A stretch of 64,000 nt of DNA from Candidatus Poriferihabitaceae bacterium (GCA_965237485.1 CBDEFQ010000009.1:1241778-1305777), one strand, 5' to 3'; shown: positions 749-57,407, counted from the stretch's first letter. The notes: a model not told the origin generated them from the letters alone. Numbers and translations: made by a program.

Positions 749-825
749 TGGCGTCCCCGAGACGATTCGAACGTCCGACCTGCCGCTTAGGAGGCGGCTG
801 CTCTATCCAGCTGAGCTACAGGGAC
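749..825 (-). tRNA. tRNA-Arg (anticodon CCT)
   Basis: The reverse complement GTCCCTGTAGCTCAGCTGGATAGAGCAGCCGCCTCCTAAGCGGCAGGTCGGACGTTCGAATCGTCTCGGGGACGCCA folds as a cloverleaf. It has a 7-bp acceptor stem, GCTC/GAGC D stem, GCCGC/GCGGC anticodon stem with loop CTCCTAA, GGACG/CGTCT T stem with TTCGAAT loop, and an encoded CCA. Confidence 0.93.
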
Positions 826-12732: not shown

Positions 12733-15402
12733 TTAAAAATTCAGAGAGATATCTTTGTGGCTAGATAAGCATCTAGCGGTAAATTTTGCTTGGCTTTCGG
12801 TTAGTTTAGCCTGTGATCTAAGGCCGATGCTACTGGAGATAGCTTTTTTGTATGCGATGAGGCCTGGTTTAAGTTCTTCAGCAGCACGTTTACGCCACTG
12901 CATTTCGTTGTCAAGTTCTGCTTTCATCTCGTCCAATTTTTCAATTGCCGCTTTACGCGCGGTTGCGTCTTCACCCTTTTTCAGAATTCTTCGCGCTTTG
13001 CTGAGGTGAACTTTAATTGCGCTAGCTCCTTTAATTTCACCGAGTTGTTTCTCCACAAGTTTGATTTCCTGCATCACATGCTCAGCTGGTTCATTAAGGA
13101 TTAGCAAGTGTAGCTTCGGATAGGCCGGTTCGATAATATCTAATTTAGCGGCGTCATTCACGATAGCCAGTAATTGAGCTAAAGTCTCATAAGCGCTATC
13201 TGCGTTGTTATAGTATTGATTACGATTTTTAGTCAGTTCACTGCTAAGCACCACGTACTTCTCATGGGCTGGCTCCCACTCGGTGGGTATAGTACCTTGC
13301 CATTGGGTGATAGATTTATTGAGTTTTACTATGCTGCTCTCAAGCTTACTTACTTGACCTGAATTATCTTCACTACTGTAGGACAGGCTTTTAACTTCAG
13401 CATTAAATTTCTTAATTGCATTGTTAGCCTCAAAGATTTGCCTTTGGACGCCTCTGGTGCTTTGAAGAATAGGTCGATATTCGGCCTCGTATTCGCCCAC
13501 TGCTTCTCGAGCAGCAATAATATTCTGCATCATGTTTTGAGCCATTGCAGCTTGTTCTAAGCTTTGTTTAAAGCGGTCCTGTAAAGAGCTTGGCAAATAG
13601 CTAATATCTAACTGATTAGCCCCTTGCAGAGCATTGTTAATGGTTGTGTTGTTATTAGCGTATTGGCCTTCAGCGTACTCTTCCAGACATAGCTGAAGTT
13701 TCGGGTTTATGGGTGGCGGTGCCGTTTCTGATAATAAATGGGTACGGTTGGGCAAGTAATTTACTAGGCTAGGGAAGTAACCAGCTATTGCTAAGCCCAC
13801 TAGCTGCAATACAATAAATGCGGCAGCGCCTTTGTAGATATCTATAGTTTCGATCACCTTGTCAGCAACACCACGTAAATAAAATAAAGCGAAGCCAAAT
13901 GGCGGAGTTAGGAAAGAAGTTTGTATATTAAGACCCACCATGACACCTAGCCATACAGCAGTAATATTAGCTTCTGGATTGGCTAACAAAATAGGCGCAA
14001 CGATGGGCACAACCACAACCGCAATTTCTATAAAATCTAAGAAAAAGCCGAGTAAAAATATAACCAGCATTACTACTATAAACTGTGACCAGAAGCCGCC
14101 TGGCAAGCCAGTTAGATATTCTTTTACCAATTCTTCACCGCCAAATGCCCGGAACGCGGAAGTCAGCATCGCGGCGCCAATTAGGATGATGAAGACCATC
14201 GAAGTGGTTTTGGCGGTTTCTATCATTACGCCTCGTAGCGTGTCGTCAATTTTGTATGTGCGCCAAGCACTCCACAAAATGGATACTAATAATATCGAAA
14301 CCACCACCACCGCCGCGTTGACCCAAAACTGATCTTGGCTAGTCTGAATGTTTTTAATGTTGATGTCGTTGGTATTGACGATATACACAATCGCTATTGT
14401 TGCCACTAGAGCGATAATAGCTGGAAGGTATTTTTTAGATTGACCGTCGAACAGGCGATAGCCAGCCATAATCATCGCGCCTATTGCGCCTATAGAGCCT
14501 GCTTGATTTACCGTAGCAACGCCGGTAATAATTGAACCAAGCACAACGAAAATTAGGGTTAGTGGTGGCACTAAAGCTAAAAATACTTTGCCTGCGAATT
14601 TAGAGTCATACTCACCTTCGTAGGGCACGGGTGGGGCTAATTCAGGCTTAATTCGCGCAGCAATCAAAATGTAAAGCATGTATATGCCGACTAAAATAAT
14701 ACCCGGCACTAACGCCCCCATGAACATGTTCCCGGCACTAGCTGATACAACATCAAACTGCGATGGCATCGAAAATTCGCCAGTGGCCGTGCGGTATAGT
14801 TCTTTACGGGCAGTATTGGCTTGATCAGCTGCATTAGATAGTTGATCGGCAAGAATGATCAGCACAATGGAAGGCGGAATAATTTGTCCCAAGGTGCCAG
14901 AGGCGCAAATTGTGCCGCACGCCAATGATTTGGAATAATTGTTTCGTAACATGGCGGGCAATGAGATTAGCCCCATTGCAATAACCGTTGCGCCAACGAT
15001 GCCAGTAGTCGCGGCCAACAAAGCCCCCACAAACACTACGGATATACCTAAGCCGCCGGGAACTGGCCCAAATAGTTGGGCCATAGCCACCAGCAAATCC
15101 TCTGCAATTTTTGAGCGTTGCAACATAATGCCCATAAATATAAACAGCGGAATGGCAATGAGGGTATCACGCTCTACCAACCAATAGAGGCTTCTGAAAT
15201 TAGTTACCCCCGCACTGAGCCACTGAACGGGCCCGTCTTGAGCAAAATAAGCGCTTGGATCGCCCGCAAATAAGTAACCTGATCCTGCAGCCAATCCGAT
15301 AGTTATAATGGCGGAGCCCGGTAAAGCAAACGCTACGGGAAATCCAGCTGTCAATGCAAAAATCATTGACAACAATAATAAGCCCAAGAATAACAATTCC
15401 AT
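12733..15402 (-). CDS. TRAP transporter large permease (DctM-like) with a ~330-aa non-membrane C-terminal extension
   Basis: 889-aa ORF. The first ~560 aa are polytopic and DctM-like. The last ~330 aa (from ..PPPINPKLQLCLEEYAEG) are hydrophilic, Lys/Glu/Gln-rich and look helical or coiled-coil. Confidence 0.8.
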   Translation of the reverse strand: MELLFLGLLLLSMIFALTAGFPVAFALPGSAIITIGLAAGSGYLFAGDPSAYFAQDGPVQWLSAGVTNFRSLYWLVERDTLIAIPLFIFMGIMLQRSKIAEDLLVAMAQLFGPVPGGLGISVVFVGALLAATTGIVGATVIAMGLISLPAMLRNNYSKSLACGTICASGTLGQIIPPSIVLIILADQLSNAADQANTARKELYRTATGEFSMPSQFDVVSASAGNMFMGALVPGIILVGIYMLYILIAARIKPELAPPVPYEGEYDSKFAGKVFLALVPPLTLIFVVLGSIITGVATVNQAGSIGAIGAMIMAGYRLFDGQSKKYLPAIIALVATIAIVYIVNTNDINIKNIQTSQDQFWVNAAVVVVSILLVSILWSAWRTYKIDDTLRGVMIETAKTTSMVFIILIGAAMLTSAFRAFGGEELVKEYLTGLPGGFWSQFIVVMLVIFLLGFFLDFIEIAVVVVPIVAPILLANPEANITAVWLGVMVGLNIQTSFLTPPFGFALFYLRGVADKVIETIDIYKGAAAFIVLQLVGLAIAGYFPSLVNYLPNRTHLLSETAPPPINPKLQLCLEEYAEGQYANNNTTINNALQGANQLDISYLPSSLQDRFKQSLEQAAMAQNMMQNIIAAREAVGEYEAEYRPILQSTRGVQRQIFEANNAIKKFNAEVKSLSYSSEDNSGQVSKLESSIVKLNKSITQWQGTIPTEWEPAHEKYVVLSSELTKNRNQYYNNADSAYETLAQLLAIVNDAAKLDIIEPAYPKLHLLILNEPAEHVMQEIKLVEKQLGEIKGASAIKVHLSKARRILKKGEDATARKAAIEKLDEMKAELDNEMQWRKRAAEELKPGLIAYKKAISSSIGLRSQAKLTESQAKFTARCLSSHKDISLNF

Positions 15403-16409
15403 TAAGCTTGAACCTCATTTTCAGTAGCACTCTCTTCGCCTGAAGATGCCGTTAATACGTGCACACTGCTAAGGAAATAAGCAGTGAATTGCATGGCCAT
15501 ACTGACAGCGAACACTATCAAGAACCCGGCCATTAAATATTTCACATACATACCATAACCGCTTTGAGAAACTTCAAAATTGATGATGGGAGCGATCAAG
15601 CTACTTTGCTTGCTACTCATGCCCAAACTAAGAATGGTCCAGCAGACGGGAAGGCCTAGAAATAGTGAACCCAGTGCATTGGTCCAGGCTTTACCGCGGG
15701 CCGAAAATTTCTCATAGAGCACATCAACTCTTACGTGCCCACCTTCAACAAGTGTGTATGCGCTGGAGAACAGGAATAGCGCGGCATACCAGTACCTGAC
15801 TAAATCCCCCATAAAGGCTTGTTCGTACGAAAATACGAACCGTGAGATTACAATGCCAAATTCGGCTATAACAACCAGTGCTGCCAGCCACATAAATCCT
15901 AAAGAACGGCTATACGCCGCGATTACAAATGAAATAGCAATTAGCGGGTAATGAAGGTAAGTGCCTCTAGTACGCGCTTGATCTAGCAGCGAAGAAATAC
16001 GACTGCCTACTAGTGGCTCAAGGAAGTTTTCAACCCGCAAAAATGAAACTACAGCATCTGCTAAACCAGTTAAAAATATTGCCCAGAATGCAGCGCGAAT
16101 GAAATAGCTTGTCCAGCTAGAATAGAGCTTAGATTCGGCTGTGAGACTGATCAGTGGTGTTTTAAACGTATATACGATGAGGCCAATAATCGTTGCGATG
16201 TAGATGCCTAGCATGATTAAGCCTTGGTATGTCCGTGCTCCCGTTAAGGCATTGCTACCCAAGAAATAGTGGCCGGTGCTTTCGCTTAGAGAGGGCCAAC
16301 CCAACCAAAAGATTAAGTATCGTGAAATTAGAAAAAGCATCAGCAACGCCATTGAGAGTTGGCCGAGAACTCTAAGAAGCTGCTTCGTTTGGTGATTATT
16401 CAATATCAC
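15402..16409 (-). CDS. TRAP transporter small permease (DctQ-like, enlarged)
   Basis: 335-aa polytopic ORF whose stop overlaps the large permease start. It sits between the TRAP binding protein and the large permease. Confidence 0.7.
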   Translation of the reverse strand: MILNNHQTKQLLRVLGQLSMALLMLFLISRYLIFWLGWPSLSESTGHYFLGSNALTGARTYQGLIMLGIYIATIIGLIVYTFKTPLISLTAESKLYSSWTSYFIRAAFWAIFLTGLADAVVSFLRVENFLEPLVGSRISSLLDQARTRGTYLHYPLIAISFVIAAYSRSLGFMWLAALVVIAEFGIVISRFVFSYEQAFMGDLVRYWYAALFLFSSAYTLVEGGHVRVDVLYEKFSARGKAWTNALGSLFLGLPVCWTILSLGMSSKQSSLIAPIINFEVSQSGYGMYVKYLMAGFLIVFAVSMAMQFTAYFLSSVHVLTASSGEESATENEVQA

Positions 16410-16435: not shown

Positions 16436-16706
16436 ACTAGTACACTGTCCAGACCAAATTGATGGATTCAGTGAGATTGTCCGCGTTCATGGCAAGGCGC
16501 GTCTTGCAGCGAATGGTGTTCCCTTTGCAAAACGCGCAACGCAGCCCATGGACGCGGACAAGCTCACCCAAAGGGCACTACCATGGCGTCCCGCAGCTGC
16601 GTTGCAGTGCTTATTAAGGGAATAACCATTAATTGCGTACTGCGTCTTATTGCAAAACACCATGGTAGTGCTGAATCCATCAATTTGGTCTGGACAGTGT
16701 ACTAGT
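16436..16706 (+). repeat. Structured repeat copy A (candidate ncRNA or unusual non-autonomous element)
   Basis: Perfect 36-nt terminal arms (16436-16471 / 16671-16706) enclose a core homologous to 57174-57371. Internal helices are 16478-16492/16546-16560 and 16576-16586/16660-16670. Confidence 0.6.
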
Positions 16707-16707: not shown

Positions 16708-16743
16708 ACAAAAAAGCGAAGCCGACCACCCCCGACTTCGCTT
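16708..16743 (-). terminator. Rho-independent terminator after the TRAP binding-protein gene
   Basis: On the minus strand, AGCGAAGTCG-ggggtggt-CGGCTTCGCT is followed by TTTTTTGTT, about 30 nt downstream of the stop at 16772. Confidence 0.75.
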
Positions 16744-16771: not shown

Positions 16772-17995
16772 CTATAGGCCTAGTACACGGTTACGCTGTG
16801 CAACGTAGGCTTGGTCAGAGATTTTCGCCCAAGCGCCGACATTAGCGCGGGCTGCCACGAAGCTTTCGTGGATTTCTTTAGCAAGTGGACTATGTGCAAC
16901 CACGTCCGCAAACACTTCTGCTGCTGCTTCGCCAAAGCTGTCGTAGATATCGTCGTTAAACGAACGAACTTTAACACCTTGCTCATTAACTAAGCGTGCT
17001 AAGGCTGCGCCGTTTTTGGCGTTGTACTCAGACATCATAACGTCATTTTCCATTGAAGAGGCAGCGTCAATCATTGCTTGGTCAGCAGTTGAAAGCCCGT
17101 CCCAGAACTCTTTGTTCATGCCACAAGCTAACATCGTTGCTGGCTCGTGCATACCAGGATAATAGTAATACTTGGCGGCTTCATAAAACTTCATGATTTC
17201 GTCGTTCCATGGTCCAACCCACTCAGTCGCGTCGATAGCACCAGAGATCAAGTTTTCATAGATCTGGCCACCAGGCAAAGAGACAGGTGAGCCACCCATC
17301 TTAGCCAGCACGTCGCCACCTAGGCCGGGCATGCGCATTTTCAGGCCTTTCAGATCATCGGCAGAGTTGATTTCCTTGCGGAACCAACCACCCATTTGCA
17401 CGCCAGTGTTGCCGCACATTAGGCCCTTCAAACCGAATTCGCCGCTTAGCTTATCCCATAACTCTTGGCCACCGCCGAAACGAATCCAAGCGTTTATCTC
17501 GGTGTAGGTTAAGCCAAAAGGAACGGCAGCAAAATAGGCAAACCCTGGGTGCTTACCTTTCCAGTAATACTCTGCAGCATGATACATTTGCGCATTGCCA
17601 GAAGCGACCTCGTCGAAAGAGTCAAACGCTTTTACGCGCTCACCAGCGGCAAAGTAATTTACCTGCATGCGGCCATCGCTCATGGTGGATAGGTGCTCGG
17701 CGAATCGTTGTGCACCAGTACCTAAACCCGGAAAATCCCGCGGCCAAGTAGCAACCATATTTATTTCAATACGATCTTTGTTAACCGCAGGTGCTTCAAC
17801 ACTAGCCGCATCCGACTCTAAGCCTACTATTTTTTCATTGGCAGAATCTAACTGGCCTTTAAGATTGGATATCGTATTGTTAGCCGCTTCAATGACTTTG
17901 CTGCCATCTTCTTGTGAACAGCCGGAAACCCCGATTACGACCGCGGTTCCGACCGCTCCTGCTGCTGCACCTTTCAATATGTCGCGTCTTTTCAT
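16772..17995 (-). CDS. TRAP transporter substrate-binding protein (Tat-signal lipoprotein type)
   Basis: The start is set at MKRRDILKGAAAGAVGTAVVIGVSGCS (ATG 17995-17993, GGAG RBS upstream), giving a twin-arginine signal plus lipobox. The body is DctP-family-like (mannitol/chloroaromatic-type TRAP SBP). Confidence 0.8.
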   Translation of the reverse strand: MKRRDILKGAAAGAVGTAVVIGVSGCSQEDGSKVIEAANNTISNLKGQLDSANEKIVGLESDAASVEAPAVNKDRIEINMVATWPRDFPGLGTGAQRFAEHLSTMSDGRMQVNYFAAGERVKAFDSFDEVASGNAQMYHAAEYYWKGKHPGFAYFAAVPFGLTYTEINAWIRFGGGQELWDKLSGEFGLKGLMCGNTGVQMGGWFRKEINSADDLKGLKMRMPGLGGDVLAKMGGSPVSLPGGQIYENLISGAIDATEWVGPWNDEIMKFYEAAKYYYYPGMHEPATMLACGMNKEFWDGLSTADQAMIDAASSMENDVMMSEYNAKNGAALARLVNEQGVKVRSFNDDIYDSFGEAAAEVFADVVAHSPLAKEIHESFVAARANVGAWAKISDQAYVAQRNRVLGL

Positions 17996-18233
17996 AATGT
18001 TCTCCTCTTGGTAATTGGTAGTGTACTTACAGTATATTTTGTTTGGATCAGTCATACGTATAAGACTTTAGTATTGCGTAATACAGACCGAAAGTAAACC
18101 GTAAGTCTTGTCCAACATGAAATGATACTGAGCGAAGGGACTGATTCTAATCGGAAATGATACCGAACTAATCTAATTTCTGTTCATGATGGTGAATGAA
18201 TACCGGCAATTTTCAGGGTAGTTGCACATTTTC

Positions 18234-19301
18234 CTACGCAGCCAATAATACTTCTTTTTGTGGGTTCAGCGCAACCGCACCACAAGGCCGCCAATTTCGG
18301 GTTTGGCCAGACCACCGATTAGGTTTTGCTGCTTTAGCTTCCTGATAAACAACTTCTCGTTTTGCTAATAGGGCACTATCTTCACCGCGATAACGCTGGC
18401 CAGGTGTAACGTAGCGTATAGCACTGTGACGATGTTCTTCGTTATACCATTGCATAAACTTACCCACCCATTGGCGGGCGGCCTCTAAGCTATCGAAGCC
18501 TTGAGAAGGCCACGCAGGGCAATACTTTACCGTTCTAAACATGGATTCAATATAAGCGTTGTCATTGCTTACTCTTGGCCTTGAGTAAGAGGGCTTTATT
18601 CCTAATGCTTCTAACTTCGCTCTCATTGTGAACGATTTCATTGGGCTGCCATTATCACTGTGTAAGACGGGCATGCCATCGCAGCTGGCCACTTTTAGAG
18701 CCGCCTGAGACATCAACTGCGCACCTAATTCACCGCTTTCAACAGGATGTACTTCCCAGTGAACGCCATAGCGACTGTAAAGGTCTTCTACCATGTACAG
18801 GTAATAATGCTTGCCAATAGTACGCGTCGCCAAATAGGTGATATCCCACATCCACACAGCATTAGGTTTTAGCGCTATATGAGTATCGGGTGTTCGGGAC
18901 TGCTTTTGTTTGGCGCGGCCGCGGTGCTTCAATTGCCCATGCGCCTTGAGAACTCGATAAAAGCTAGACTCGCTGGCCACATAAATACCTTTGTCAGCCA
19001 ACTGCGGTACTATTTGCGACGGCGGCAAATGATGGTATGCCGATTCATTACATATCGATAAAATGTGTTGCTGCTCTTGCTCGCTTAGTTTATTGCCAGG
19101 GACTGGCTTTTCTACCAAAGGACGTTGATCACTGCGGATACTATCTTCTCCTTTTGGCTTCCAACGTCTAAGCGTAGACTCGGCAAGGCCAACCAACTCA
19201 CAAGCACTTGAACGCTTTGAACCTGCGTCTACTGCTTCATTAACATCATTGATTACTTTAATGCGCGTCTGAGTCGTAATCATACTTCCTCGTCCTCCCA
19301 A
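18234..19301 (-). CDS. IS3-family transposase OrfB (DDE/rve)
   Basis: 355-aa ORF with WMWDITY, LHSDNGSPM and SRPRVSNDNAYIESMFRTVKY, the classical IS3 DD(35)E region. Confidence 0.88.
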   Translation of the reverse strand: MGGRGSMITTQTRIKVINDVNEAVDAGSKRSSACELVGLAESTLRRWKPKGEDSIRSDQRPLVEKPVPGNKLSEQEQQHILSICNESAYHHLPPSQIVPQLADKGIYVASESSFYRVLKAHGQLKHRGRAKQKQSRTPDTHIALKPNAVWMWDITYLATRTIGKHYYLYMVEDLYSRYGVHWEVHPVESGELGAQLMSQAALKVASCDGMPVLHSDNGSPMKSFTMRAKLEALGIKPSYSRPRVSNDNAYIESMFRTVKYCPAWPSQGFDSLEAARQWVGKFMQWYNEEHRHSAIRYVTPGQRYRGEDSALLAKREVVYQEAKAAKPNRWSGQTRNWRPCGAVALNPQKEVLLAA

Positions 19302-32384: not shown

Positions 32385-32547
32385 CCTAGATAAATCAGTT
32401 AAAACACGAAAGTCCATGCAAGCTCTTGATGCACCTAGCAAAATCAAAAAAAACCTTATCACCAATAAGGTAACCGCGACTTTTTTGATTTCACTATGCA
32501 CTTCAATTGCTTACATGTCTTTTCCGCGTTTAACTGATTTATCTAGG
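32385..32547 (-). mobile_element. 163-bp foldback MITE, subfamily 1
   Basis: It sits at the same site in the IS66-family transposase as the other three copies. Here its inner end directly abuts the 183-bp deletion. Confidence 0.88.
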
Positions 32548-33160
32548 ATTAAGCGCTCGGTGTGTATCCAACACAAGGCATGAGCCAAAATGTTAAATTG
32601 CCCTGCATCATCACTGACGACAGCGATGTCATCACACAGACCATGATGCAAAATACTACCAAGTAATGCCCCTTCGGTGGTGATACGTCGGTGACGTGCC
32701 TTAATGATCAACAGGCTATCGAGCATTTCAAGCCAGTCATCCTCGTTGGCAATACGGCGTTCCCGGTGCTCAGTTACAGCGGCTAAGGCTTGCTTTGGCA
32801 ATCCATGTTGTTGCCTATAATTCAACGCACTTTGACTCAAACGATAATCCGTATTGCCAGCCCTTAATAGCGGTAGGAAGTTAATTCGACTTTTTGATTG
32901 AGTACTTTTAAACCACGCAAACAAGTCATTACCAATGTGCGTTACATAGCCATTTTTGCCCTGATGGCGAGCACCACTATCGTCCACGGTCACGTAAGAC
33001 GATGCGCTCAGAGCAACGCCTCTTTCTCAGCATGAAAGGGCTCTTTAGTGCTGATCAGTATTGGGTTAATTTGTCCCGAAGAAATATCAATTCCCCACTC
33101 TCGCAACTGTTCCAACAAGAGTGGTTGCGTGGTTTGACAATGATGATATTGATAGAGAAT

Positions 33161-34336
33161 GGGCTCGTCGGTTAATACAATTTCAAACAGGGTTTTCGCC
33201 GAAGTCGCTTTTAGTTTGCTCAGCAACGCGTTTTTTGTGCAATAAACCGTCTATTAGCAGCCATTTTGCCACCAATAGACGGATCTATCCCTAGGCCGGC
33301 ACCAATTCAACTCGTTCAACTCCCAATGCCATTAATCGCTTAAGGTTAAAACATAAGCCCCTGATTCCAACTTGGAACTGGACTTTAGCCAACCCTTTAT
33401 AACGAACTCGCTTATTGCGATGAGCAAACACTCGCTCATATGGTGAACGAATTTTGCTAATCCAACGGTCTTTGTCTCTATTCTTGCCATGCATATTGTT
33501 CTTCTTGATTGTTGCATCATGGCAACCGTTGCGCCTGAGCGTGGTTTTGGCCGGGCTCACGCAATAACCCTTGTCCGCATAAACAGCGCCCGACTTAGGG
33601 CAAACATGCTTCAAGCCGCTTGCATCCGTTACCTCAGCCGAGGTGGCCGCTATTTTATTGATCAAGCCACTTTGCATATCCACTGATGCATGCTCTTTGT
33701 AACCATACCAATATTTGCTATTTCCCTTGCACCCAAACCGTGCTTGCTTGTCCGCCGCAACTTTATCAACTGTCTTATTGTTGAACTCCTCTAATCCCAT
33801 CTTTATCGCCTTATCTCTATCATCCCAAGTGGTTAGCTTACTGACCAACTGGCTGGCATCGACAAATGTGAATACTTCTCGTACTAAGCCCATTGAAACT
33901 AACCCGCTCCGAACACGGTCAAATAAATTCATCATACCCCTGGTTCCAATGCGTGAGCGAAAATCACCAAAGTAACTATGATCAGGAGTGCTCTGTTCCA
34001 GTCCTGAATCACAAAACCACTTAGCGGCCAGATTCTCTGATAAGTATCGCTCCATTTCTCTATCACTTAAATCTTCCATGAACTGAAGCACCAAGGCACG
34101 TAAGCCGAACTCAACACCTCGGCCTTTAGGGCCACGGGTGGCATATATTTTAGAGAAGGGTTTACTCAATGCACCAAAACATAATAGCTCATCGAGTTTA
34201 CGGTAGGGATGTTCAGAGCTAACCAGAGAATCTAAGGTTAGGAACAGTTGGCTTTGATGACGTTTGCTCAAAATTGCAGGCTGACTAGAATCAGCCCATA
34301 TTATCTCACGTATTCTATTAATTATCCGACAAGCCC
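33161..34336 (-). mobile_element. IS5-family insertion sequence nested in the IS66-family element
   Basis: 1176-bp element with IRs GGGCTCGTCGGTTAAT / ATTATCCGACAAGCCC. The host sequence duplicated is AGAAT on the + strand (ATTCT in the IS66 reading direction). The uninterrupted IS66 copy reads ..TTATATTCTCTATCAAT.. Confidence 0.85.
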
Positions 34337-34364
34337 AGAATATAACTGACCAGACGAGGCCCAT
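33291..34364 (-). CDS. IS5-family DDE transposase
   Basis: 357-aa ORF with an InsH-like N-terminal region (HPYRKLDELL..LRALVLQFMEDLSDREME) and DDE regions FVDASQL, VYADKGY and YERVFAHRNK. The ORF-track ATG lies 28 bp outside the IS end, so the native start is probably internal (TTG about 93 nt downstream). Confidence 0.75.
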   Translation of the reverse strand: MGLVWSVIFWACRIINRIREIIWADSSQPAILSKRHQSQLFLTLDSLVSSEHPYRKLDELLCFGALSKPFSKIYATRGPKGRGVEFGLRALVLQFMEDLSDREMERYLSENLAAKWFCDSGLEQSTPDHSYFGDFRSRIGTRGMMNLFDRVRSGLVSMGLVREVFTFVDASQLVSKLTTWDDRDKAIKMGLEEFNNKTVDKVAADKQARFGCKGNSKYWYGYKEHASVDMQSGLINKIAATSAEVTDASGLKHVCPKSGAVYADKGYCVSPAKTTLRRNGCHDATIKKNNMHGKNRDKDRWISKIRSPYERVFAHRNKRVRYKGLAKVQFQVGIRGLCFNLKRLMALGVERVELVPA

Positions 34365-35117
34365 AATGTCGCCCTGCCACGGATGTCGGTCACTGGCCTT
34401 TGAGCTTTTTATTGTCTGGCGTTACCCAATGCGCTAAACGATAGCGGGTGGTATGAACCTTGATAAGCAAATCTTGCACTACAAAATCCCGATAGCCTTT
34501 AAAGCGAGAACCTTCGGGCACGGACTTCGCTGGTTCAATAACCCGATTTAGGTCAATTGACAGCCTTGGTGTTTTCTTTGCCTTGTTCGACCCAGCTCGC
34601 TGCTTAGGTTTGTCGCTAGAAGATGAACGTTTTGGCTCTGTTTTCTTATCCATATTACCGCCCTTAACAGTAGGCCGCCTCTTCTGCCCCTTAAGGATAT
34701 TGATTTCATCTTTAAGCAATGCTATTTCTTCGTCCTGTTGTTGAACTCGCACCAACAGCTGCTCCACTAGCACCCGCAACATTTTTACTGCGGGGGTTTG
34801 TTCTTGTTCAGGAATGTCGGGAATAGAGGGTAGCTTACTCAAGGTCTTAAACGTCCGTTAACTGGATAGACCTTAGTGTACCATCGGTTTTGAAAGTCCA
34901 ATTTTGCCTTCTCAACTGCGCCACAACGAACGTTAAGAAGACACCCCTGAACGTCCTTAAGCGATCTTTGTTATTAGCGTAAAGGTGCCTACAACCACCC
35001 TGGAACTCAACCTAAATCGAGTCACTCGACCACGTTGAATTACCTTCCTTTTAGCGTAAAACCCTGTCAAGAAATATTTTGTTTTATTTTACCTGCCACG
35101 GGTTATTGAGAAGTTAC

Positions 35118-36024
35118 GTTTTAAGTCGAGGTAGTCTTTAACCGCATTGGCAACCGTAATCGCACTTTGCTTGCCCGTGCGATAGACCTCAATAATAATA
35201 GTCGGCTCGCCATTAAAATGGGTGTTGAGGGGGTCTTGAGCAAAGCCGTCCGTGACCGTGGCAATATCCTTGAGTTTTAAATCATTGCCTTGGGCATCGC
35301 TGCGTAAACTAAGATTGCCGAATGAATCGGCAGATTCTCTTAAGTTGCTAGTGCGCAATAAAATCTCGCCGCCACTTGCCTTTAATGGAACCTGCAGGAA
35401 AGTCGATTGAAGCCTGTTTAAGCGAGTTCACAATCTCGGCTAAACTTATCTTCGCTTGCTGTAATTTCTGCGGCTCAATCTCAATGCTAATCTCGTGGTC
35501 GCGAATGCCGTTTAACTCGGCATAACTAATTTGCGATAGGGCGGCAATTTCATCGCGGACTTGTTCGCTAATTTGGCGTAAGTCCAATTCTGGAAGATCG
35601 CCAGAAACAGCGACACTGATCACTTCGCGGCGAAAAACTGATACCGAATAGTTGGCTTTTTCGACCTCTGCGGGAAAAGTGGAAATACTGTCAATCCTGC
35701 TTTTTATGTCGTTCACTAATTCACGAGGCTTAAAGCCGTTATCTACTTCAATGGCTAAGCGGGCCGCACCCTCGTAAGCACTAGAAGAAATCTTTTTAAC
35801 GCCATCGAGGTCAGCGATGGCTTCTTCGGCGCGTACAACAACTGCTTGTTCAACTTCGGTAGGACTGGTGCCTTGATAAATAATGGCGACGTTGATGATG
35901 TCGTGTTCAAAGCTGGGAATACTTCAAGGGGGATACGTTCCTTAAGCGACCACCCACCAATGGCAAGAATAACCAGCAATAACAAGTTAGCAGCAACGCC
36001 GTTACGGGCAAACCACGCTATCAT
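35118..36024 (-). pseudogene. RND efflux permease (AcrB-like), N-terminal ~300 codons only, frameshifted and truncated by IS
   Basis: Three ORF fragments (35755-36024, 35348-35716, 35089-35358) read MIAWFARNGVAANLLLLVILAIGG.. then the periplasmic porter subdomain. The last fragment runs into the IS terminal repeat (tail NFSITRGR). Confidence 0.8.
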
Positions 36025-36059
36025 CTTAGATTCTGTGGCTGATTTGACATTAGCAAGGT

Positions 36060-37400
36060 TTAAAGTGTTTCAAAGAACGCACGTTGTTTGTCGGCAGGCA
36101 AATTCAAAACTTCCATTTTCTTATGTTCTGGTAAAGCCTTAAAAGCTTGGCACTTTTCTAATGCTAGTTCTTTAGTCAGAGCTTTAAACTTCTGGCTTAG
36201 ATTATTTCCAGATTCGTTAGCTTCGCCTTTTGGTGATTCTCCTGCTATTGATACGTTTATTCCTTCTGCGGCTAAAGCAATTGGAGTTTTAATTAGCCGC
36301 TGACCAACTTCAATTCCATCTCGGATAACAACATTCTCCGCATCGGCCCATAGCAGGGTAATTTGTTTATGAATTAGTTTGTTGTCCTTTGAAACAAGTT
36401 GAATGTGAGTATTATTTTTAGTGGAGTTGCGCGGGATGACCCAAACATCATTTAACACGGTAGCATCAATTTGAGCACTTACAAATTGACCCAATGTGAG
36501 CGCTTGCCCACCATCAGCGCTTTTTACAAAGGGCTGTGCCACTTCAGCCACCACATACTGCTGTAAGCTTTGTGCATTTACTATGCCTTCGCTACGCACT
36601 AATGTCCCTCTGCGTACAGAAGTTGGTTTTTTTTCACTACCCTCAATGGCGACATTCGGCCCCGCTTCATTAGATAGTGCCTCAAGATTGAGGAAGGACA
36701 GCTGCTTAGCAGTAAGGGGTAGGCGCACCTCAATCTTATCCGTTGCGACTAATTCTAAAAGCGTTGTTCCGGCATTTACAAACTGATTTATACTTACCTG
36801 CTTGGTGATAATGCGACTGTCAAATGGGGCATTTATTTTAGTTCGTGTCAGTTGGGTTCTCGCTTGAGCAACGCGCGCTTTCGCCGCAGCCAAGGCGGCT
36901 TCATTGCTTTTTCGTTGCGGTTCCCGTAATGCCAGTTTGCTGGGTTCTCCACTTAATCCTAACAGTGCGCGGTCACGTAACACCTGGTCGCGCTCAGCAT
37001 CACCTTGTTCTAATGTCAGTTGGGCTTGGGCTTGGGCTAGCTCAGCTTTAACAATAATCAATTTTTGCTGAAGATCGGAATCGTCAATTTCAACTAACAC
37101 TTCATCCTTTTTGAATAGCCCGCCAACGTGAAGCTTGGGTGATAATTTGATGACGCGCCCCTTAACTTCGGCAGAAATCGTGCTTTGTTTGGTCGCTTGT
37201 ACTAGCCCATGGCTTTTTAATCGAACTTGATAGCTTTGCGGCGCTAAGTTCAGAACCTCTACCATGGGTGGATTGGCAGTTTTGGGGCGCCGCTGTTGAT
37301 CTGGTGCCGTATCCAGAAGTTGCTTACCAGCAAATAAGAATAGGCCAAGCACTAAGATGGGAAGACCAAATCTTAGTACGGAACGGATTAGGGCTAACAT
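36060..37400 (-). CDS. RND efflux periplasmic adaptor (membrane fusion protein)
   Basis: 446-aa ORF with an N-terminal TM anchor, a coiled-coil hairpin (AELAQAQAQLTLEQGDAERD..AAKARVAQARTQL), and barrel-sandwich and beta-barrel regions. Confidence 0.8.
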   Translation of the reverse strand: MLALIRSVLRFGLPILVLGLFLFAGKQLLDTAPDQQRRPKTANPPMVEVLNLAPQSYQVRLKSHGLVQATKQSTISAEVKGRVIKLSPKLHVGGLFKKDEVLVEIDDSDLQQKLIIVKAELAQAQAQLTLEQGDAERDQVLRDRALLGLSGEPSKLALREPQRKSNEAALAAAKARVAQARTQLTRTKINAPFDSRIITKQVSINQFVNAGTTLLELVATDKIEVRLPLTAKQLSFLNLEALSNEAGPNVAIEGSEKKPTSVRRGTLVRSEGIVNAQSLQQYVVAEVAQPFVKSADGGQALTLGQFVSAQIDATVLNDVWVIPRNSTKNNTHIQLVSKDNKLIHKQITLLWADAENVVIRDGIEVGQRLIKTPIALAAEGINVSIAGESPKGEANESGNNLSQKFKALTKELALEKCQAFKALPEHKKMEVLNLPADKQRAFFETL

Positions 37401-37535
37401 GGTTTTTAGGGTAGGTGCGTCTAAGGCCTTTAGTAGAGTGGGCTAAATTGTAACAAGAAATCACAACTCATCTATTACTTTGGCGAGGCCGAAGAAGCGG
37501 GGTACACAAGGGCTAGCCGTTTGCTAACCAACAAA

Positions 37536-37889
37536 TCAGTCAGTAGATGATTTCGGTTTTTCGTAGAAAATATAACTGGTTGAGTAGTCAGAGAACTCAA
37601 AATACACTTTTTGCTCATTTGCATCTTGTTTGGAGTTCAAGTTTTCGTCGAGTACCCCATAACCGAAGCGATAAGGCCGTGGCTGATTGCCGTTGGTGCT
37701 TACTGCGGTAGAAAGTTTATCAACACCCATAAACCGTTTGACCAGCTTGTCACCGGCGTAGACCTCAAGTACTCCATCGGTGCCCGTCCAGTTTTGAACA
37801 GCACGACCGAACTTGTTTTGGGTTTCTTGGGTACAAGCACTTAACAGCAAGCTAGCGAGCGCCACTAATAGGATAGGTTTTAATTGCAT
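37536..37889 (-). CDS. small lipoprotein, unknown function
   Basis: The start is set at MQLKPILLVALASLLLSAC (lipobox LLSAC). It is identical to its mirror copy at 50094-50447. Confidence 0.6.
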   Translation of the reverse strand: MQLKPILLVALASLLLSACTQETQNKFGRAVQNWTGTDGVLEVYAGDKLVKRFMGVDKLSTAVSTNGNQPRPYRFGYGVLDENLNSKQDANEQKVYFEFSDYSTSYIFYEKPKSSTD

Positions 37890-38408
37890 GGTTTTGATGT
37901 GCCTTCTCGGGCTTTGCAAGCAGCGGATATTATAGCGGGAATGACCAGCAATAAGAAATCATCCTTCGCGGGATCCGCATCGGGATTGGGGGTCTTACAC
38001 AGCTCCTCATATTCGATAAGGCTAGCGAACGCGGCACCACTGTCCAGCTACACTTTAGTATGAATTTGCTCGTCCGCTCGTAACTTCTCAATAACCCGTG
38101 GCAAAGCTGGCGCGTTCCATAATGATATCTGGCAGAGGATCAATATGTTGCTCACCGATACCAAGTCGATGGGTCAGGTAGTGCCAGAACGATATATCCA
38201 GTTTTCGGCAGGTCTTTTTCAAACTGGCAAACGTGTCCCGACACTGCTGGCCAGCATCGCTGCGGGTGGAGCCACTCACTTTTCGTTTTTTCACGTAATC
38301 GCGAATGTCTGTTTCACTGCCATTGGTGTGTAACGGAATATCTGGTCGATCTAGCACCAACAGTAATTCTGCTTGATTCGCATGGATTCGTTTGAGCGTC
38401 TGATTTAA

Positions 38409-38571
38409 CCTAGATAAATCAGTTAAAACACGAAAGTCCATGCAAGCTCTTGATGCACCTAGCAAAATCAAAAAAAACCTTATCACCAATAAGGTGACCG
38501 CGACTTTTTTGATTTCACTATGCACTTCAATTGCTTACATGTCTTTTCCGCGTTTAACTGATTTATCTAGG
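38409..38571 (-). mobile_element. 163-bp foldback MITE, subfamily 1
   Basis: Mirror of 49412-49574. Confidence 0.88.
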
Positions 38572-39539
38572 TTTAATGTTTGGTAGCATGTCTGTTGAGT
38601 GAAGATTTCATCGAAACGCTGCTCAAGTATTTTACGTTGGTTCTCGCAAGGCTGGGTTTTATACTCTTTTAACGCCCGATAAAAGCACCAGACTTGGTCG
38701 CGTATTTTAGCCATGCCCTGCCGGTGTCCCTCGTTCAGCGGTATCAACTTATGGATTAAGCGCTCGGTGTGTATCCAGCACAAGGCATGAGCCAAAATGT
38801 TAAATTGCCCTGCATCATCACTGACGACAACGATGTCATCACACAGACCATGATGCAAAATACTACCAAGTAATGCCCCTTCGGTGGTGATACGTCGGTG
38901 ACGTGCCTTAATGATCAACAGGCTATCGAGCATTTCAAGCCAGTCATCCTCGTTGGCAATACGGCGTTCCCGGTGCTCAGTTACAGCGGCTAAGGCTTGC
39001 TTTGGCAATCCATGTTGTTGCCTATAATTCAACGCACTTTGACTCAAACGATAATCCGTATTGCCAGCCCTTAATAGCGGTAGGAAGTTAATTCGACTTT
39101 TTGATTGAGTACTTTTAAACCACGCAAACAAGTCATTACCAATGTGCGTTACATAGCCATTTTTGCCCTGATGGCGAGCACCACTATCGTCCACGGTCAC
39201 GTAAGACGATGCGCTCAGAGCAACGCTTAGTAACGCCTCTTTCTCAGCATGAAAGGGCTCTTTAGCACTGATCAGTATTGGGTTAATTTGTCCCGAAGAA
39301 ATATCAATTCCCCACTCTCGCAACTGTTCCAACAAGAGTGGTTGCGTGGTTTGACAATGATGATATTGATAGAGAATATAACTGACCAGACGAGGCCCAT
39401 AATGTCGCCCTGCCACGGATGTCGGTAACTGGCCTTTGAGCTTTTTATTGTCTGGCGTTACCCAATGCGCTAAACGATAGCGGGTGGTATGAACCTTGAT
39501 AAGCAAATCTTGCACTACAAAATCCCGATAGCCTTTAAA

Positions 39540-49895: not shown

Positions 49896-50093
49896 GAAGT
49901 TACGAGCGGACGAGCAAATTCATACTAAAGTGTAGCTGGACAGTGGTGCCGCGTTCGCTAGCCTTATCGAATATGAGGAGCTGTGTAAGACCCCCAATCC
50001 CGATGCGGATCCCGCGAAGGATGATTTCTTATTGCTGGTCATTCCCGCTATAATATCCGCTGCTTGCAAAGCCCGAGAAGGCACATCAAAACC

Positions 50094-56176: not shown

Positions 56177-57142
56177 ATGCTTCAGATATCCACAAAACGT
56201 ATCCACTATGGGTTTTTGGTCGTTCCTGACTTTTCGCTAATGACCTACGCATCAGCCATTGAAATGTTACGAATGGTGAATCAGGTGAATGAGAGAGTAC
56301 TCTACACATGGGACGTATTGACCCCTAATAATCAGCCTATTTTGGCCAGTTGTGGGCTTGAGATTGCACCGAGTAAGAACAAGGAAGAGATGGCCAATTA
56401 CAGTGCCTTGTTTGTGTCTGGCGGTATCAATATTCGTCGAGCTTGGAACCCTAAACTGGCAACTTGGTTAAGACAAATTGCCAAATCGCGCGTAGCATTG
56501 GCTGGGTTAAGCACAGGCCCGTATTTGCTTGCTAAGTCTGGGTTGTTGGATGGTTATCGGTCGACTGTCCATTGGGATAGTTTGTCCTCAATGCGTGAGG
56601 AATTTCCACATTTAAAACTAACTGACGATGTTTATGAAATCGACCGCGACCGATACACTTGCGCTGGCGGCGCATCGACAATGGATTTTATGTTGCACTT
56701 GATAGGTTTGGAATATGGAAAGGCAACGGCACGAAGCGTGTCAGATCTATTTTTGCTTGAACGCATTCGTACAGAGACCGATAGACAGCGCATCCCTCTA
56801 CGACATCAAATAGGTACTGGACAGCCGAAGTTGTATAGCGCGGTGGTATTGATGGAAGCCAATTTAGAAGAGCCCCTCACAACCGAAGAATTGGCAGGTT
56901 ACGTAAATATTACCCGAAGGCAGCTGGAGCGGTTATTTCGCAGACACCTTAAATGCACTCCGATGGAATACTACCGCAGTATCCGATTGGCAAACGCTCA
57001 ACGCTTATTACGTCATACAGAAATGCCAGTGCTAGAAGTCGCGATGGTATGTGGTTTTAATTCGGCGTCGCATTTTAGTCGTTGCTATAAAGAAGCACAC
57101 AATCGGACACCGGGTGCGGATAGACAGATATCGATGAACTAG
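56177..57142 (+). CDS. GlxA-family transcriptional regulator (DJ-1/PfpI-like domain + AraC HTH)
   Basis: The start is set at MLQISTKRIHYGFLVVPDF (ATG 56177), because the ORF-track start lies in the IS terminus. The C-terminal AraC HTH is LEVAMVCGFNSASHFSRCYKEAHNRTP. Confidence 0.8.
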   Translation: MLQISTKRIHYGFLVVPDFSLMTYASAIEMLRMVNQVNERVLYTWDVLTPNNQPILASCGLEIAPSKNKEEMANYSALFVSGGINIRRAWNPKLATWLRQIAKSRVALAGLSTGPYLLAKSGLLDGYRSTVHWDSLSSMREEFPHLKLTDDVYEIDRDRYTCAGGASTMDFMLHLIGLEYGKATARSVSDLFLLERIRTETDRQRIPLRHQIGTGQPKLYSAVVLMEANLEEPLTTEELAGYVNITRRQLERLFRRHLKCTPMEYYRSIRLANAQRLLRHTEMPVLEVAMVCGFNSASHFSRCYKEAHNRTPGADRQISMN

Positions 57143-57407
57143 TACTCTTTCAAGATAATATTGCCTAATTCAGTGAGTCTGTCCGCGTACCTGGCAAGGC
57201 GTCGCTTGCAGGAAATGGACTCCATTTTCAAAAGCGACAACGCAGTCCAGGTGCGTGGACAGGCTGACCCAAAGGGCACCAACGCGCCGTCCCACAGCCG
57301 CGTTGTATCGCTTTTGAAGGGAGTGACCATTCATTGCGCAATACGCCTTGCTGTGAAGCGGCGCGTTGACGCTGAATTAGGCAATATTATCTTGAAAGAC
57401 TACTGTC
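57138..57407 (+). repeat. Structured repeat copy B (candidate ncRNA or unusual non-autonomous element)
   Basis: The terminal arms pair over 57141-57173 / 57372-57404 (33 nt, 1 mismatch). The shared ACT prefix at 57138-57140 has no complementary partner in 57405-57407. Internal helices are 57180-57194/57247-57261 and 57280-57289/57359-57368. The core is homologous to copy A. Confidence 0.6.

What the first reader, a model, noticed from the sequence alone, without database searches (positions are those of the whole stretch)
16436..16706. ~270-nt element with a conserved core but three sequence-divergent, pairing-preserving helices (copy A): candidate new structured RNA or unusual mobile element
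Two loci, this one and 57138-57407, lie in the same orientation on the + strand. They share conserved interior blocks: TGAGnyTGTCCGCGT, GGCAAGGCG..CTTGCAG, CAACGCAG, GCTsACCCAAAGGGCAC, GTCCC and AAGGGAnTrACCATTmATTGCG. The helices around those blocks differ in sequence yet still pair.

- P1: the 36-nt terminal arms share only their first 8 and last 6 nt. The arms are ACTAGTACACTGTCCAGACCAAATTGATGGATTCAG here and ACTAGTACTCTTTCAAGATAATATTGCCTAATTCAG in copy B. Each pairs with its own partner arm, 36/36 here.
- P2: TGTCCGCGTTCATGG/CCATGGACGCGGACA here and TGTCCGCGTACCTGG/CCAGGTGCGTGGACA in B. This includes a compensated A-T to C-G change. All imperfect pairs are G.T on the + strand and would be A.C on the other strand, which points to a + strand transcript.
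- P3: CACTACCATGG/CCATGGTAGTG here and CAACGCGCCG/CGGCGCGTTG in B, at an equivalent position with unrelated sequence.

Ordinary MITEs show the opposite pattern, with conserved ends and a free interior. I do not recognise the three-way-junction layout as any RNA family I know.

This copy sits immediately next to the intrinsic terminator of the TRAP binding-protein gene, inside the operon and antisense to it.
Basis: partly seen in the sequence, partly recalled or inferred. Interest (0 to 1): 0.78.

Follow-up and report, generated by a model that had tools for sequence, protein, structure and literature searches.

The report
Self-folding mirror-symmetric miniature transposon family
The two ~268-bp loci are copies of an apparently undescribed family of small non-coding mobile repeats found in marine sulfur-cycling bacteria; the whole body of the repeat is kept able to fold into a three-armed hairpin, and copies often sit exactly between one gene's stop codon and the next gene's start.

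Summary
Copy A has 36/36 pairing arms, A and B are 83% identical, and no Rfam family matches.

Two spurious gene calls in public genomes, then DNA patterns, gave more than 90 relatives. They come from Sedimenticola, Ca. Thiodiazotropha, other gammaproteobacterial MAGs and marine-sediment metagenomes.

Across the family the arms are conserved ~32-bp terminal inverted repeats flanked by TA, often C-TA...TA-G. This makes the element a MITE-like repeat.

The interior fold is also real. In 55 full copies from four deeply diverged subfamilies, 96.4% of cells are paired and 66 of 88 pairs carry compensatory changes.

It is not a single + strand RNA. The element is an inverted dimer: each half, read inward from its own tip, is an arm plus a ~100-nt hairpin module. 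That module folds well, with G.U pairs, only on that strand.

Shorter forms with no module or one module also exist.

- In 24 of 50 copies an incoming gene uses TA plus the element's first G as its stop codon.
- In 10 of 50 copies the element exactly bridges a stop codon and a start codon.
- An arm GGAG lies 5-11 nt upstream of those adjacent starts.

No partner transposase was found.

Verdict: a new, unusually structured variant of a known kind (MITE).

The parts
16438..16439 (.). Copy A, left flanking TA. Together with C16437 it forms the CTA context. Putative target-site duplication.
   Evidence: TA lies on the left of 45 of 57 full copies and on the right of 43 of 57. In the set not biased by the search pattern the counts, read off the alignment, are 18 of 22 and 13 of 22.
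16440..16471 (+). Copy A, left terminal inverted repeat (arm, 5' strand of P1).
   Evidence: repeat I1: 36/36 with the right arm when ACTA/TAGT is included. In the family alignment 21 of 30 P1 pairs covary.
16472..16567 (+). Copy A, left hairpin module (P2 domain: outer stem, inner stems, apical loop). It folds on the + strand.
   Evidence: repeats I2 and I4. Family-wide consensus fold: -47.3 kcal/mol and 32 pairs on +, against -21.1 and 19 pairs on -. G.U 212 against A.C 8.
16567..16575 (+). Copy A, central mini-hairpin CCC-AAA-GGG. The loop varies across the family (TTC, GTA, GCA, GAA).
   Evidence: Helix 5: 3 pairs, 98% paired, one pair with a C-G to U-A change on both sides.
16575..16671 (-). 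It is an inverted copy of the left module and folds best on the - strand.
   Evidence: repeat I3. Family-wide consensus fold: -60.1 kcal/mol and 35 pairs on -, against -29.8 and 23 pairs on +. Left half against the reverse complement of the right half: 73% identical in A.
16671..16702 (+). Copy A, right terminal inverted repeat (3' strand of P1).
   Evidence: repeat I1.
16703..16704 (.). Copy A, right flanking TA, followed by G16705 (TAG context).
16714..16743 (-). Intrinsic-terminator-like hairpin of dctP with its T-run. It is host sequence; the element lies 9-10 nt beyond it.
57140..57141 (.). Copy B, left flanking TA. TA plus the element's first G (57142) is the TAG stop codon of the AraC-type gene 56099-57142.
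57142..57173 (+). Copy B, left terminal inverted repeat.
   Evidence: 33 nt, 97% complementary. This arm is close to the family consensus.
57174..57268 (+). Copy B, left hairpin module (P2 domain).
   Evidence: repeat I2.
57268..57276 (+). Copy B, central mini-hairpin CCC-AAA-GGG.
57276..57371 (-). Copy B, right hairpin module (P3 domain).
   Evidence: (repeat I3). Half against half: 76% identical.
57372..57403 (+). Copy B, right terminal inverted repeat. It is slightly decayed: one substitution, and the flank reads TG instead of TA at 57404-57405.

Best explanation
Copies A and B belong to a family of about 268-bp non-autonomous transposable elements (MITEs).

Anatomy. Each element is an inverted dimer: TA, a 32-nt arm, a ~100-nt hairpin module, a CCC-loop-GGG mini-hairpin, an inverted module, an inverted arm, TA.

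Mobilisation (inferred). The element is moved in trans by a transposase that inserts at TA, preferring C-TA-G or C-TA-A, and duplicates the TA. That is the behaviour of IS630/Tc1-mariner-type DDE enzymes. Because this target contains stop codons, copies land at gene ends and in very short operon junctions.

Fold (shown). Lineages of the element are under selection to keep a single-stranded fold: P1 between the arms, plus one local hairpin domain per half.

Most likely role (inferred). The fold acts in RNA made by host read-through transcription.

- Two-fold symmetry gives the same fold whichever way the element is inserted.
- The closed three-way junction brings the upstream stop codon (TA plus the element's first G) next to an arm-encoded GGAG. 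That GGAG lies 5-11 nt before the downstream start codon.
- The insertion would therefore be tolerated inside operons.

Shown: family membership, anatomy, covariation, dyad symmetry, insertion pattern.

Inferred: the type of transposase, RNA rather than DNA as the folded molecule, and the expression-preserving role.
For: Mobile, multi-copy and non-coding:

- 37 genome loci and more than 120 metagenome loci were found. Several MAGs and strains carry 4-5 copies. Loci lie at unrelated genes and often at contig ends.
- Reading frames are not conserved between copies. The only protein-database hits are two unannotated singleton gene calls.

Ends:

- The arms are conserved terminal inverted repeats.
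- TA flanks 45 of 57 copies on the left and 43 of 57 on the right.
- The context is CTA...TAG in 18 copies and CTA...TAA in 7. The outer bases are therefore flank, not palindrome.
- Tandem copies share one dinucleotide.
- Deletion forms of 31-57 nt (arms only) and about 160 nt (one module) keep the same tips and TA.

Fold:

- 22 copies: 97.6% of cells paired, 52 of 98 pairs with changes on both sides, covariation 0.329 against 0.141 shuffled, 0 of 500 shuffles as high.
- 55 copies: 96.4% paired, 66 of 88 pairs, covariation 0.437 against 0.178, 0 of 500. Slid controls give about 0.07.
- Four subfamilies with different helix sequences fold alike at 267-270 nt.

Single-strand selection:

- Non-Watson-Crick cells in the left module are 212 G.U, 8 A.C and 52 other on the + strand. 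The right module mirrors this on the - strand.
- Pair types shared by three or more copies: 12 G.T against 1 A.C.
- Pair types private to one copy: 12 G.T, 9 A.C and 13 other. Single copies decay while lineages keep pairing.

Insertion pattern:

- 24 of 50 copies have an incoming ORF of at least 80 codons that stops in the terminal TA+G.
- 26 of 50 have an outgoing ORF that starts within 12 nt of a tip.
- 10 of 50 bridge a stop and a start exactly, with the start 0-5 nt beyond the tip.
- 32 of 114 tips have such a start just beyond ...GGAGYAC-TA.
- Both orientations are equally common.

Persistence: the orthologous copies L005 and L111 are about 96% identical by my count, while their coding flanks are 89% identical. 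One P1 change is compensated.
Against: - No transposase with these ends was found in the window or in 158 loci.
- No empty site was recovered. TA and CTAG are themselves palindromic, so duplication cannot be formally separated from terminal base pairs.
- In the unbiased genome set the right-hand TA is present in only 13 of 22 copies.
- Nothing here shows that an RNA exists. The same fold is predicted for single-stranded DNA (-92 kcal/mol, z = -15).
- A read-through RNA model does not explain why only the 5'-proximal module of each strand is kept well paired.
- It also does not explain why length is held at 267-270 nt.
- GGAG is replaced by AGAG in about a quarter of copies (pair 9-267).
- GGAG is absent from copy A, whose arm reads GGACAG.
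- A hairpin that starts at the stop codon could hinder termination rather than help coupling.
Confidence: 0.55

Rival explanations
1. REPIN-like element. The unit (arm plus hairpin module) is recognised as folded single-stranded DNA by a RAYT/IS200-type HUH enzyme, or another structure-specific enzyme. The 268-bp form is a doublet of inverted units, as REPINs are doublets of REPs.
For: - Two-fold symmetry with hairpins that are each strand-specific is the REPIN layout.
- A series of singlets and doublets exists: 31-nt hairpins, one-module forms and two-module forms.
- Each genome carries its own near-identical variant.
- An orthologous copy has been conserved over about 11% flank divergence.
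- The fold is also strong with DNA parameters.
- Structure is conserved while sequence is not, as expected for recognition by structure.
Against: - The tips read GTRC inside the stem. There is no unpaired GTAG-type head.
- TA on both sides, with varying outer bases, looks like a duplication.
- No Y1/HUH gene was seen beside any copy in the ORF lists that were read.
- The modules are 3-4 times longer than any REP.
Confidence: 0.2
2. The pairing is kept by neutral concerted evolution, not by selection. Template switching or gene conversion between the inverted segments of one element copies one strand of each palindrome onto the other.
For: - P1 shows no strand bias: G.U 41 against A.C 36.
- P1 is perfect even in the divergent copy A.
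- Private mismatches look random.
Against: - Conversion would give Watson-Crick pairs. It would not give 13 columns that hold G.U in at least three copies, with no column holding A.C that often, all on one strand in the left module. The right module shows the same bias in cell counts on the - strand.
- It does not explain the conserved loops, the fixed length, or the same architecture in four subfamilies.
Confidence: 0.1
3. The palindromes are double-stranded binding sites for a dimeric protein, such as inner transposase sites. The 'compensation' is co-evolution of half-sites with the protein, and nothing folds.
For: - The inner cores (GCAAGGCGC..GCAGGCAATGG..CCTTG.CAAG..GCAACGC) are conserved in sequence in both halves.
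- By definition, terminal inverted repeats co-vary through the protein that binds them.
Against: - Stems of 18-21 bp with unrelated sequences in different subfamilies still pair at 96%.
- Their non-pairs are G.T (212) rather than A.C (8) or other (52). Protein half-sites would not favour wobble-compatible differences on one strand.
Confidence: 0.05
4. One reading: a free-standing structured non-coding RNA gene, transcribed from the + strand, that happens to be duplicated.
For: - Covariation is strong.
- The + strand minimum free energy is lower in 16 of 22 and 37 of 55 copies.
- There is no Rfam match, so it would be new.
Against: - Whole-element consensus energy is -127.8 on + and -133.1 on -.
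- The right module folds best on the - strand.
- On the 72 pairs common to both strand predictions, G.U against A.C is 30 to 19.
- The element has TA-flanked terminal repeats, deletion derivatives, many copies per genome and both orientations.
- No promoter or terminator of its own was found in copy A.
Confidence: 0.05

Closest known systems
Correia elements (CREE/NEMIS) of Neisseria
   Same: - Small, non-coding and multi-copy, with terminal inverted repeats flanked by TA.
- Inserted close to genes and co-transcribed, forming a long hairpin through its repeats.
- No partner transposase known.

These points rest on my own knowledge and on the reviews PMC2229807 and PMC3184786.
   Different: - Correia elements are 100-155 bp. 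Their fold is essentially the pairing of the terminal repeats.
- Here the element is 268 bp, with two internal ~100-nt hairpin modules that covary on their own and have opposite strand preference.
- No sequence similarity was found in the plasmid or phage collections, and no Rfam family matched.
bcr1 and related repeats of the Bacillus cereus group
   Same: A MITE-like repeat for which compensatory base changes that keep a cruciform-like RNA structure have been reported (Klevan 2007 and Kristoffersen 2011, as summarised in PMC3184786).
   Different: - bcr1 is about 155 bp, has 5-bp direct repeats, and occurs in Firmicutes.
- No dyad-symmetric two-module layout, TA target, or stop/start bridging has been described for it.
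REP / REPIN-RAYT systems
   Same: - Inverted doublets of palindromic units, with singlets alongside.
- Variants specific to each genome.
- Long persistence at orthologous sites.
- Location just after stop codons.
   Different: - REP units are about 20-40 nt with a GTAG-type head and no duplication.
- Here the units are about 135 nt, the tips read GTRC inside the stem, and TA lies on both sides.
- No RAYT gene was seen nearby.
RUP of Streptococcus pneumoniae and other IS630-mobilised MITEs
   Same: A TA target and duplication, and a preference for NTAN/CTAG, as in the IS630 family (my own knowledge; IS630 and terminal TA are also mentioned in PMC4853749).
   Different: - RUP is 107 bp and its ends match a known partner, IS630-Spn1.
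- Here no partner is known, and the interior is conserved and structured.
Chunjie (Geobacter) and Neisseria REP2
   Same: - Chunjie is a MITE reported inside an operon without disrupting it.
- REP2 carries a ribosome-binding site used by the downstream gene.

Both points come from PMC3184786.
   Different: - Chunjie has 9-bp direct repeats and is A+T-rich.
- REP2 has no terminal inverted repeats.
- Neither is described as sitting exactly between a stop and a start codon with the stop codon rebuilt by the element.

Membership tests
MITE (generic) | Short (under about 500 bp), with no conserved coding capacity. | tested here: met
   Copies are 267-270 bp. Reading frames are broken by indels between copies. 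The only protein-database hits are two unannotated singletons.
MITE (generic) | Terminal inverted repeats conserved across copies. | tested here: met
   About 32-bp arms, with the consensus visible in 55 copies. P1 is 96.7% paired.
MITE (generic) | Many copies at unrelated sites within a genome. | tested here: met
   4-5 hits each in MAG Ww462, MAG ChS5.bin.15 and Sedimenticola SN1189, in different contigs and beside different genes. The window holds 2 copies.
MITE (generic) | Target-site duplication shown by comparing filled and empty sites. | tested here: inconclusive
   TA lies on both sides in about 75-80% of copies, and the outer bases vary. No empty site was recovered: the only orthologous pair is filled in both, and L014 against L038 is too divergent.
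MITE (generic) | An autonomous insertion sequence with the same ends. | tested here: inconclusive
   None was found in the window or in 158 loci. Whole genomes could not be searched.
IS630/Tc1-mariner-mobilised element | Insertion at TA within NTAN (often CTAG), with TA duplicated. | tested here: inconclusive
   CTA..TAG in 18 copies, CTA..TAA in 7, CTA..TAT in 3 and TTA..TAG in 3, out of 57. This fits, but the TA could also be the terminal pair of the palindrome.
IS630/Tc1-mariner-mobilised element | A DDE (DDE_3) transposase that binds these repeats. | not testable with these tools
   No partner was found.
REP/REPIN-RAYT | Inverted doublet of palindromic units, each folding on its own strand. 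| tested here: met
   Left half against the reverse complement of the right half: 72% identity on average. Modules fold on opposite strands.
REP/REPIN-RAYT | A conserved GTAG-type head 5' of the stem, and no duplication. | tested here: not met
   The tips are TA-GTRC, with GTRC paired to GYAC.
REP/REPIN-RAYT | A RAYT (Y1 HUH) gene flanked by the units. | not tested
   No such ORF was noticed in the ORF lists read near copies.
IS200/IS605-derived PATE | No terminal inverted repeats; both end hairpins on the same strand; target on the left side only. | tested here: not met
   The element has long terminal inverted repeats, its hairpins lie on opposite strands, and its flanks are symmetric.
Any Rfam 15 RNA family | A match at the family's gathering score. 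| tested here: not met
   The only hit in the window is a tRNA. Copy A gives nothing at E up to 10. Copy L013 gives only microRNA-hairpin noise far below the cut-offs.

The most novel reading that the evidence does not exclude
The element carries its own bridge for translational coupling.

- P1 places the upstream stop codon (rebuilt as TA plus G) directly opposite an arm-encoded Shine-Dalgarno sequence, so a terminating ribosome would unmask the next gene's start.
- The two self-folding modules keep the 268-nt insert compact.
- Dyad symmetry makes this work in either orientation.

A variant of this reading is that the ~100-nt module is a new functional RNA or single-stranded-DNA domain, recognised by an unknown enzyme and spread by the repeat.
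Probability: 0.2. Interest if true: 0.75.

Novelty: new variant of a known kind. Interest (0 to 1): 0.5.

Why it matters
MITEs are usually treated as decaying leftovers whose only constrained parts are their ends.

- **Constraint on the whole body.** Here a whole ~268-bp body is held under structural constraint across deeply diverged subfamilies. Its mirror symmetry assigns one well-folded module to each strand.
- **Placement.** Copies sit with single-base precision between stop and start codons.
- **If the fold keeps operon expression intact.** The family would be a clear case of a selfish element evolving to be harmless, and a natural part for insulating or coupling cistrons.
- **If the modules are recognised as single-stranded DNA.** The family would extend REPIN-like biology to much larger units.
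- **Annotation.** The family explains spurious small gene calls and contig breaks in genomes of sulfur-oxidising symbionts and sediment bacteria.

Tried and rejected
**Rfam**
- The window at gathering scores, and copies A and L013 at E up to 10, gave nothing relevant.

**First DNA patterns**
- Patterns built on ACCCAAAGGGCAC..GTCCC found nothing in the genome, viral or metagenome collections.
- The reason is that the AAA loop is specific to A and B.

**Other similarity searches**
- blastn against plasmids and phages found nothing.
- Exact look-ups of two window proteins and of P0001 found nothing on record, so the source organism was not identified.

**Protein-coding reading**
- Rejected. The frames differ between A and B because of a 1-nt indel.

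**L011**
- The interrupted copy there was checked as a possible autonomous element. It is two partial copies around a toxin-antitoxin-like pair.
- The family assignment of that pair is from reading the translations only.

**L136**
- The 794-bp form has no long ORF.

**Distant pairs of terminal repeats**
- Pairs 0.6-3.5 kb apart enclose host genes, not transposases.

**Strand from wobble counts**
- '+ strand only' first looked strong: 159 G.T against 20 A.C.
- It turned out to be ascertainment once the - strand was folded too. It was replaced by the module-wise result.

**Promoter**
- A sigma-70 promoter inside copy A was not found.
- The conserved TGATAWT in the arm could be an inward -10 box, but this was not tested.

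**Literature**
- No paper describing this family was found.

Full report
**1. The observation**

Both loci read as described.
- Copy A has arms 16436-16471 and 16671-16706 that are 36/36 complementary. Copy B has 33-nt arms at 97%.
- A and B are 83% identical.
- The core motifs occur nowhere else in the window.
- Each copy folds far better than shuffled sequence. RNA: -158.6 and -155.5 kcal/mol, z about -16 and -15. Copy A as single-stranded DNA: -92 kcal/mol, z = -15.
- Rfam has nothing. The only window hit at gathering score is a tRNA, and copy A gives no hit at E up to 10.
- The frames open in A and B differ because of a 1-nt indel, so the element is not protein-coding.

**2. Context**

- Copy A lies between dctP (16772-18055, -) and a DctQ-domain gene (15402-16409, -). 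It sits 9-10 nt beyond the dctP terminator-like hairpin at 16714-16743.
- Copy B lies between convergent genes. Its left TA plus its first G form the TAG stop codon of an AraC-type gene (56099-57142). An ABC ATPase gene ends 11 nt from its right tip.
- The window is 45% G+C and crowded with insertion sequences of other families. None of them has ends like this element.

**3. Finding relatives**

- The first patterns, taken from the A/B core, found nothing in any collection. blastn against plasmids and phages also found nothing.
- Gene finders sometimes call ORFs inside repeats, so I searched the protein database with the spurious ORFs of the element.
  - The + frame of B hit one unannotated protein, P0001. 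Its contig could not be fetched.
  - A profile of the - frames of A and B hit P0002. Its contig is Sedimenticola hydrogenitrophicus SN1189, and it carries a diverged third copy.
- The third copy showed that the AAA loop of CCC-AAA-GGG is variable and pointed to a better pattern.
  - That pattern found 37 genome loci in Sedimenticola, Ca. Thiodiazotropha and many gammaproteobacterial MAGs, with up to 5 per genome.
  - A pattern from the arm consensus then found more than 120 metagenome contigs. Several carry 'marine sediment' or 'sediment metagenome' in their names.
  - Of these, 35 hold further full copies and 40 hold partial copies.

**4. What the family shows about the ends**

- Across the family the arms are conserved ~32-bp terminal inverted repeats. 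B is close to the consensus, and A is a divergent lineage.
- TA flanks 45 of 57 full copies on the left and 43 of 57 on the right. The commonest contexts are CTA..TAG (18), CTA..TAA (7), CTA..TAT (3) and TTA..TAG (3).
- The metagenome set is biased by the search pattern. Read off the unbiased genome alignment, the counts are 18 of 22 and 13 of 22.
- The outer bases vary while TA does not, and tandem copies share one dinucleotide. TA therefore behaves like a 2-bp duplication at an NTAN target, which is the habit of the IS630/Tc1-mariner family (my own knowledge).
- No empty site was recovered, so this stays an inference.

**5. A modular series**

The family comes in several sizes, all with the same tips and TA flanks:
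- 31-nt hairpins;
- 48-57-nt forms with arms only;
- forms of about 160-175 nt with one internal module, in either orientation;
- the 268-nt two-module form;
- forms of 292-340 nt and 794 nt with insertions.

**6. The fold is real**

| Set | Cells paired | Pairs changed on both sides | Covariation score (observed vs shuffled) | Shuffles as high | Slid controls |
|---|---|---|---|---|---|
| 22 copies | 97.6% | 52 of 98 | 0.329 vs 0.141 | 0 of 500 | about 0.05 |
| 55 copies, four subfamilies | 96.4% | 66 of 88 | 0.437 vs 0.178 | 0 of 500 | about 0.07 |

- In the 55-copy set the outer stem of P2 covaries at 16 of 18 pairs, and that of P3 at 12 of 12.
- Subfamilies II-IV have unrelated stem sequences but the same three-domain layout and the same length, 267-270 nt.
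- Pair types shared by three or more copies are almost never A.C (12 G.T against 1 A.C). Types private to one copy are 12 G.T, 9 A.C and 13 other.
- So single copies decay at random while lineages keep pairing.

**7. Strand: the main correction**

- On the + strand consensus, G.T outnumbers A.C by 159 to 20. This is partly circular.
- Folding the - strand gives a comparable structure with its own wobble pairs. On the 72 pairs common to both predictions the ratio is 30 to 19.
- For 55 copies the consensus energies are -127.8 on + and -133.1 on -.
- Taken module by module, the picture is sharp:

| Module | + strand | - strand | G.U : A.C on its better strand |
|---|---|---|---|
| Left (P2) | -47.3 kcal/mol, 32 pairs | -21.1 kcal/mol, 19 pairs | 212 : 8 on + |
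| Right (P3) | -29.8 kcal/mol, 23 pairs | -60.1 kcal/mol, 35 pairs | 210 : 31 on - |

- The - strand consensus of the right module is visibly homologous to the + strand consensus of the left module.
- Whole halves are 72% identical on average when one is reverse-complemented: 73% in A and 76% in B. nhmmer had already shown this.
- P1 and the outer P3 stem show no bias: 41 to 36 and 21 to 20.
- The element is therefore an inverted dimer. Each half, read 5' to 3' from its own tip, is an arm plus a hairpin module selected to pair on that strand.
- The excess of wobble-compatible mismatches over all others rules out protein half-sites in double-stranded DNA. It also argues against purely neutral copying between the repeats.

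**8. Where copies sit**

- Copies are intergenic and occur in both orientations about equally. By my reading, 8 copies have both neighbours co-directional with the element and 7 have both antisense.
- Of 50 full copies with adequate flanks:
  - 24 have an incoming ORF of at least 80 codons whose stop codon is TA plus the element's first G;
  - 26 have an outgoing ORF that starts within 12 nt of a tip;
  - 10 do both in one direction, with the start codon 0-5 nt beyond the tip.
- Of 114 tips, 32 have such a start just beyond ...TTGA(A/C)GGAGYAC-TA. The arm's GGAG is then 5-11 nt upstream of the adjacent starts.
- Examples are pilG in L001 and the gene left of L038. In L014 the ortholog of that gene directly abuts its neighbour, with no element between them.
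- One orthologous pair, L005 and L111, keeps the element at about 96% identity (11 differences in 268 by my count of the alignment). Its coding flanks are 89% identical, and one C-G to T-A change in P1 is compensated.

**9. Interpretation**

The best-supported reading is a MITE family with a TA target, whose whole body is under selection to fold as a single strand.

I favour RNA made by read-through transcription, for four reasons:
- the copies sit in transcribed junctions;
- symmetry makes the fold independent of orientation;
- the tips rebuild a stop codon and supply a Shine-Dalgarno-like GGAG;
- wobble pairs are frequent and some are fixed.

In this reading P1 brings the stop codon and the start codon together, and the modules keep the insert compact. 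Insertions in operons would then be tolerated.

What this reading leaves open:
- why only the 5'-proximal module on each strand is well paired;
- why the length is fixed;
- the fact that no RNA has been shown.

The main rival is a REPIN-like element handled as single-stranded DNA by an HUH enzyme.
- It explains the polarity and the singlet/doublet series naturally.
- It fits the TA flanks poorly, and it lacks the GTAG head and any RAYT gene nearby.

**10. Comparison with what is known**

- The closest described elements are Correia elements, bcr1, REPINs, RUP, and Chunjie or REP2. bcr1 is a MITE-like repeat with reported compensatory changes at the RNA level (PMC3184786).
- None of them combines a dyad of ~100-nt covarying modules with opposite strand preference, a fixed 268-nt length, and placement between stop and start codons.
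- No paper describing the family was found.
- I class it as a new variant of a known kind.

Noticed in passing
window 32546-40321 and 47662-55437: A 7,776-nt, 100% identical inverted repeat with 7.3 kb between the arms. It is packed with insertion-sequence fragments (an IS5-type DDE gene and IS66 pieces) and with fragments of HlyD/AcrB efflux genes. Further partial copies lie at 54964-56110. It may be a recent inverted duplication or a composite structure.
   Followed up: partly
window 19837, 32380, 38404, 39535, 48273, 49407, 55614 (each about 176 nt): A second, unrelated fold-back repeat. Its ends read CCTAGATAAATCAGTTAAA..., its 73-nt arms are about 77% complementary, and a terminator-like hairpin sits at its centre. 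At least some copies lie where IS66 transposase ORFs are split. It is probably another MITE.
   Followed up: partly
window 19.9-21.2 kb, 30.3-31.6 kb, 60.1-61.4 kb; also 18234-19301 and 47201-47665: Three copies of an insertion sequence with an rve-type integrase; two of the three have split ORFs. There is also an IS481/IS3-like gene and an IS256 (Mutator) fragment. The source genome is unusually rich in insertion sequences.
   Followed up: no
L156, about 1100-1514 (read on the - strand): An ORF that begins MKITTIGLDIAKS..., which I read as IS110-family-like (no domain scan was run), starts about 120 nt inside a truncated subfamily-II copy. Several other loci (L078, L087, L118) break off at a similar point of the element. 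The repeat may be a target for another insertion sequence.
   Followed up: no
L011 750-1930: Two partial copies: one keeps only the left module, the other has lost the left module. They flank a pair of small genes that look like a DUF433/DUF5615-type toxin-antitoxin pair. That assignment is from reading the translations; no domain scan was run.
   Followed up: partly
L033 5379-5694, L011, L052 2147-2486, L029, L034, L075: Copies with an extra 20-70 nt. L033 and L011 share one ~50-nt insert at the apex of the right module. L029 has an insert in the left module, and L034 has a short internal duplication. At least some inserts sit at a module apex rather than in a stem.
   Followed up: no
all full copies (alignment A4): Length is held at 267-270 nt across four subfamilies whose stems share little sequence. 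No explanation so far accounts for this.
   Followed up: no
window 752-825 (-): A tRNA gene, the only Rfam match in the window.
   Followed up: no
L107 8179-8497; L040, L096 left flanks: Elements in tandem, or next to arm-only mini forms, are separated by a single TA or TG. This is what repeated insertion into the flanking TA would give.
   Followed up: partly
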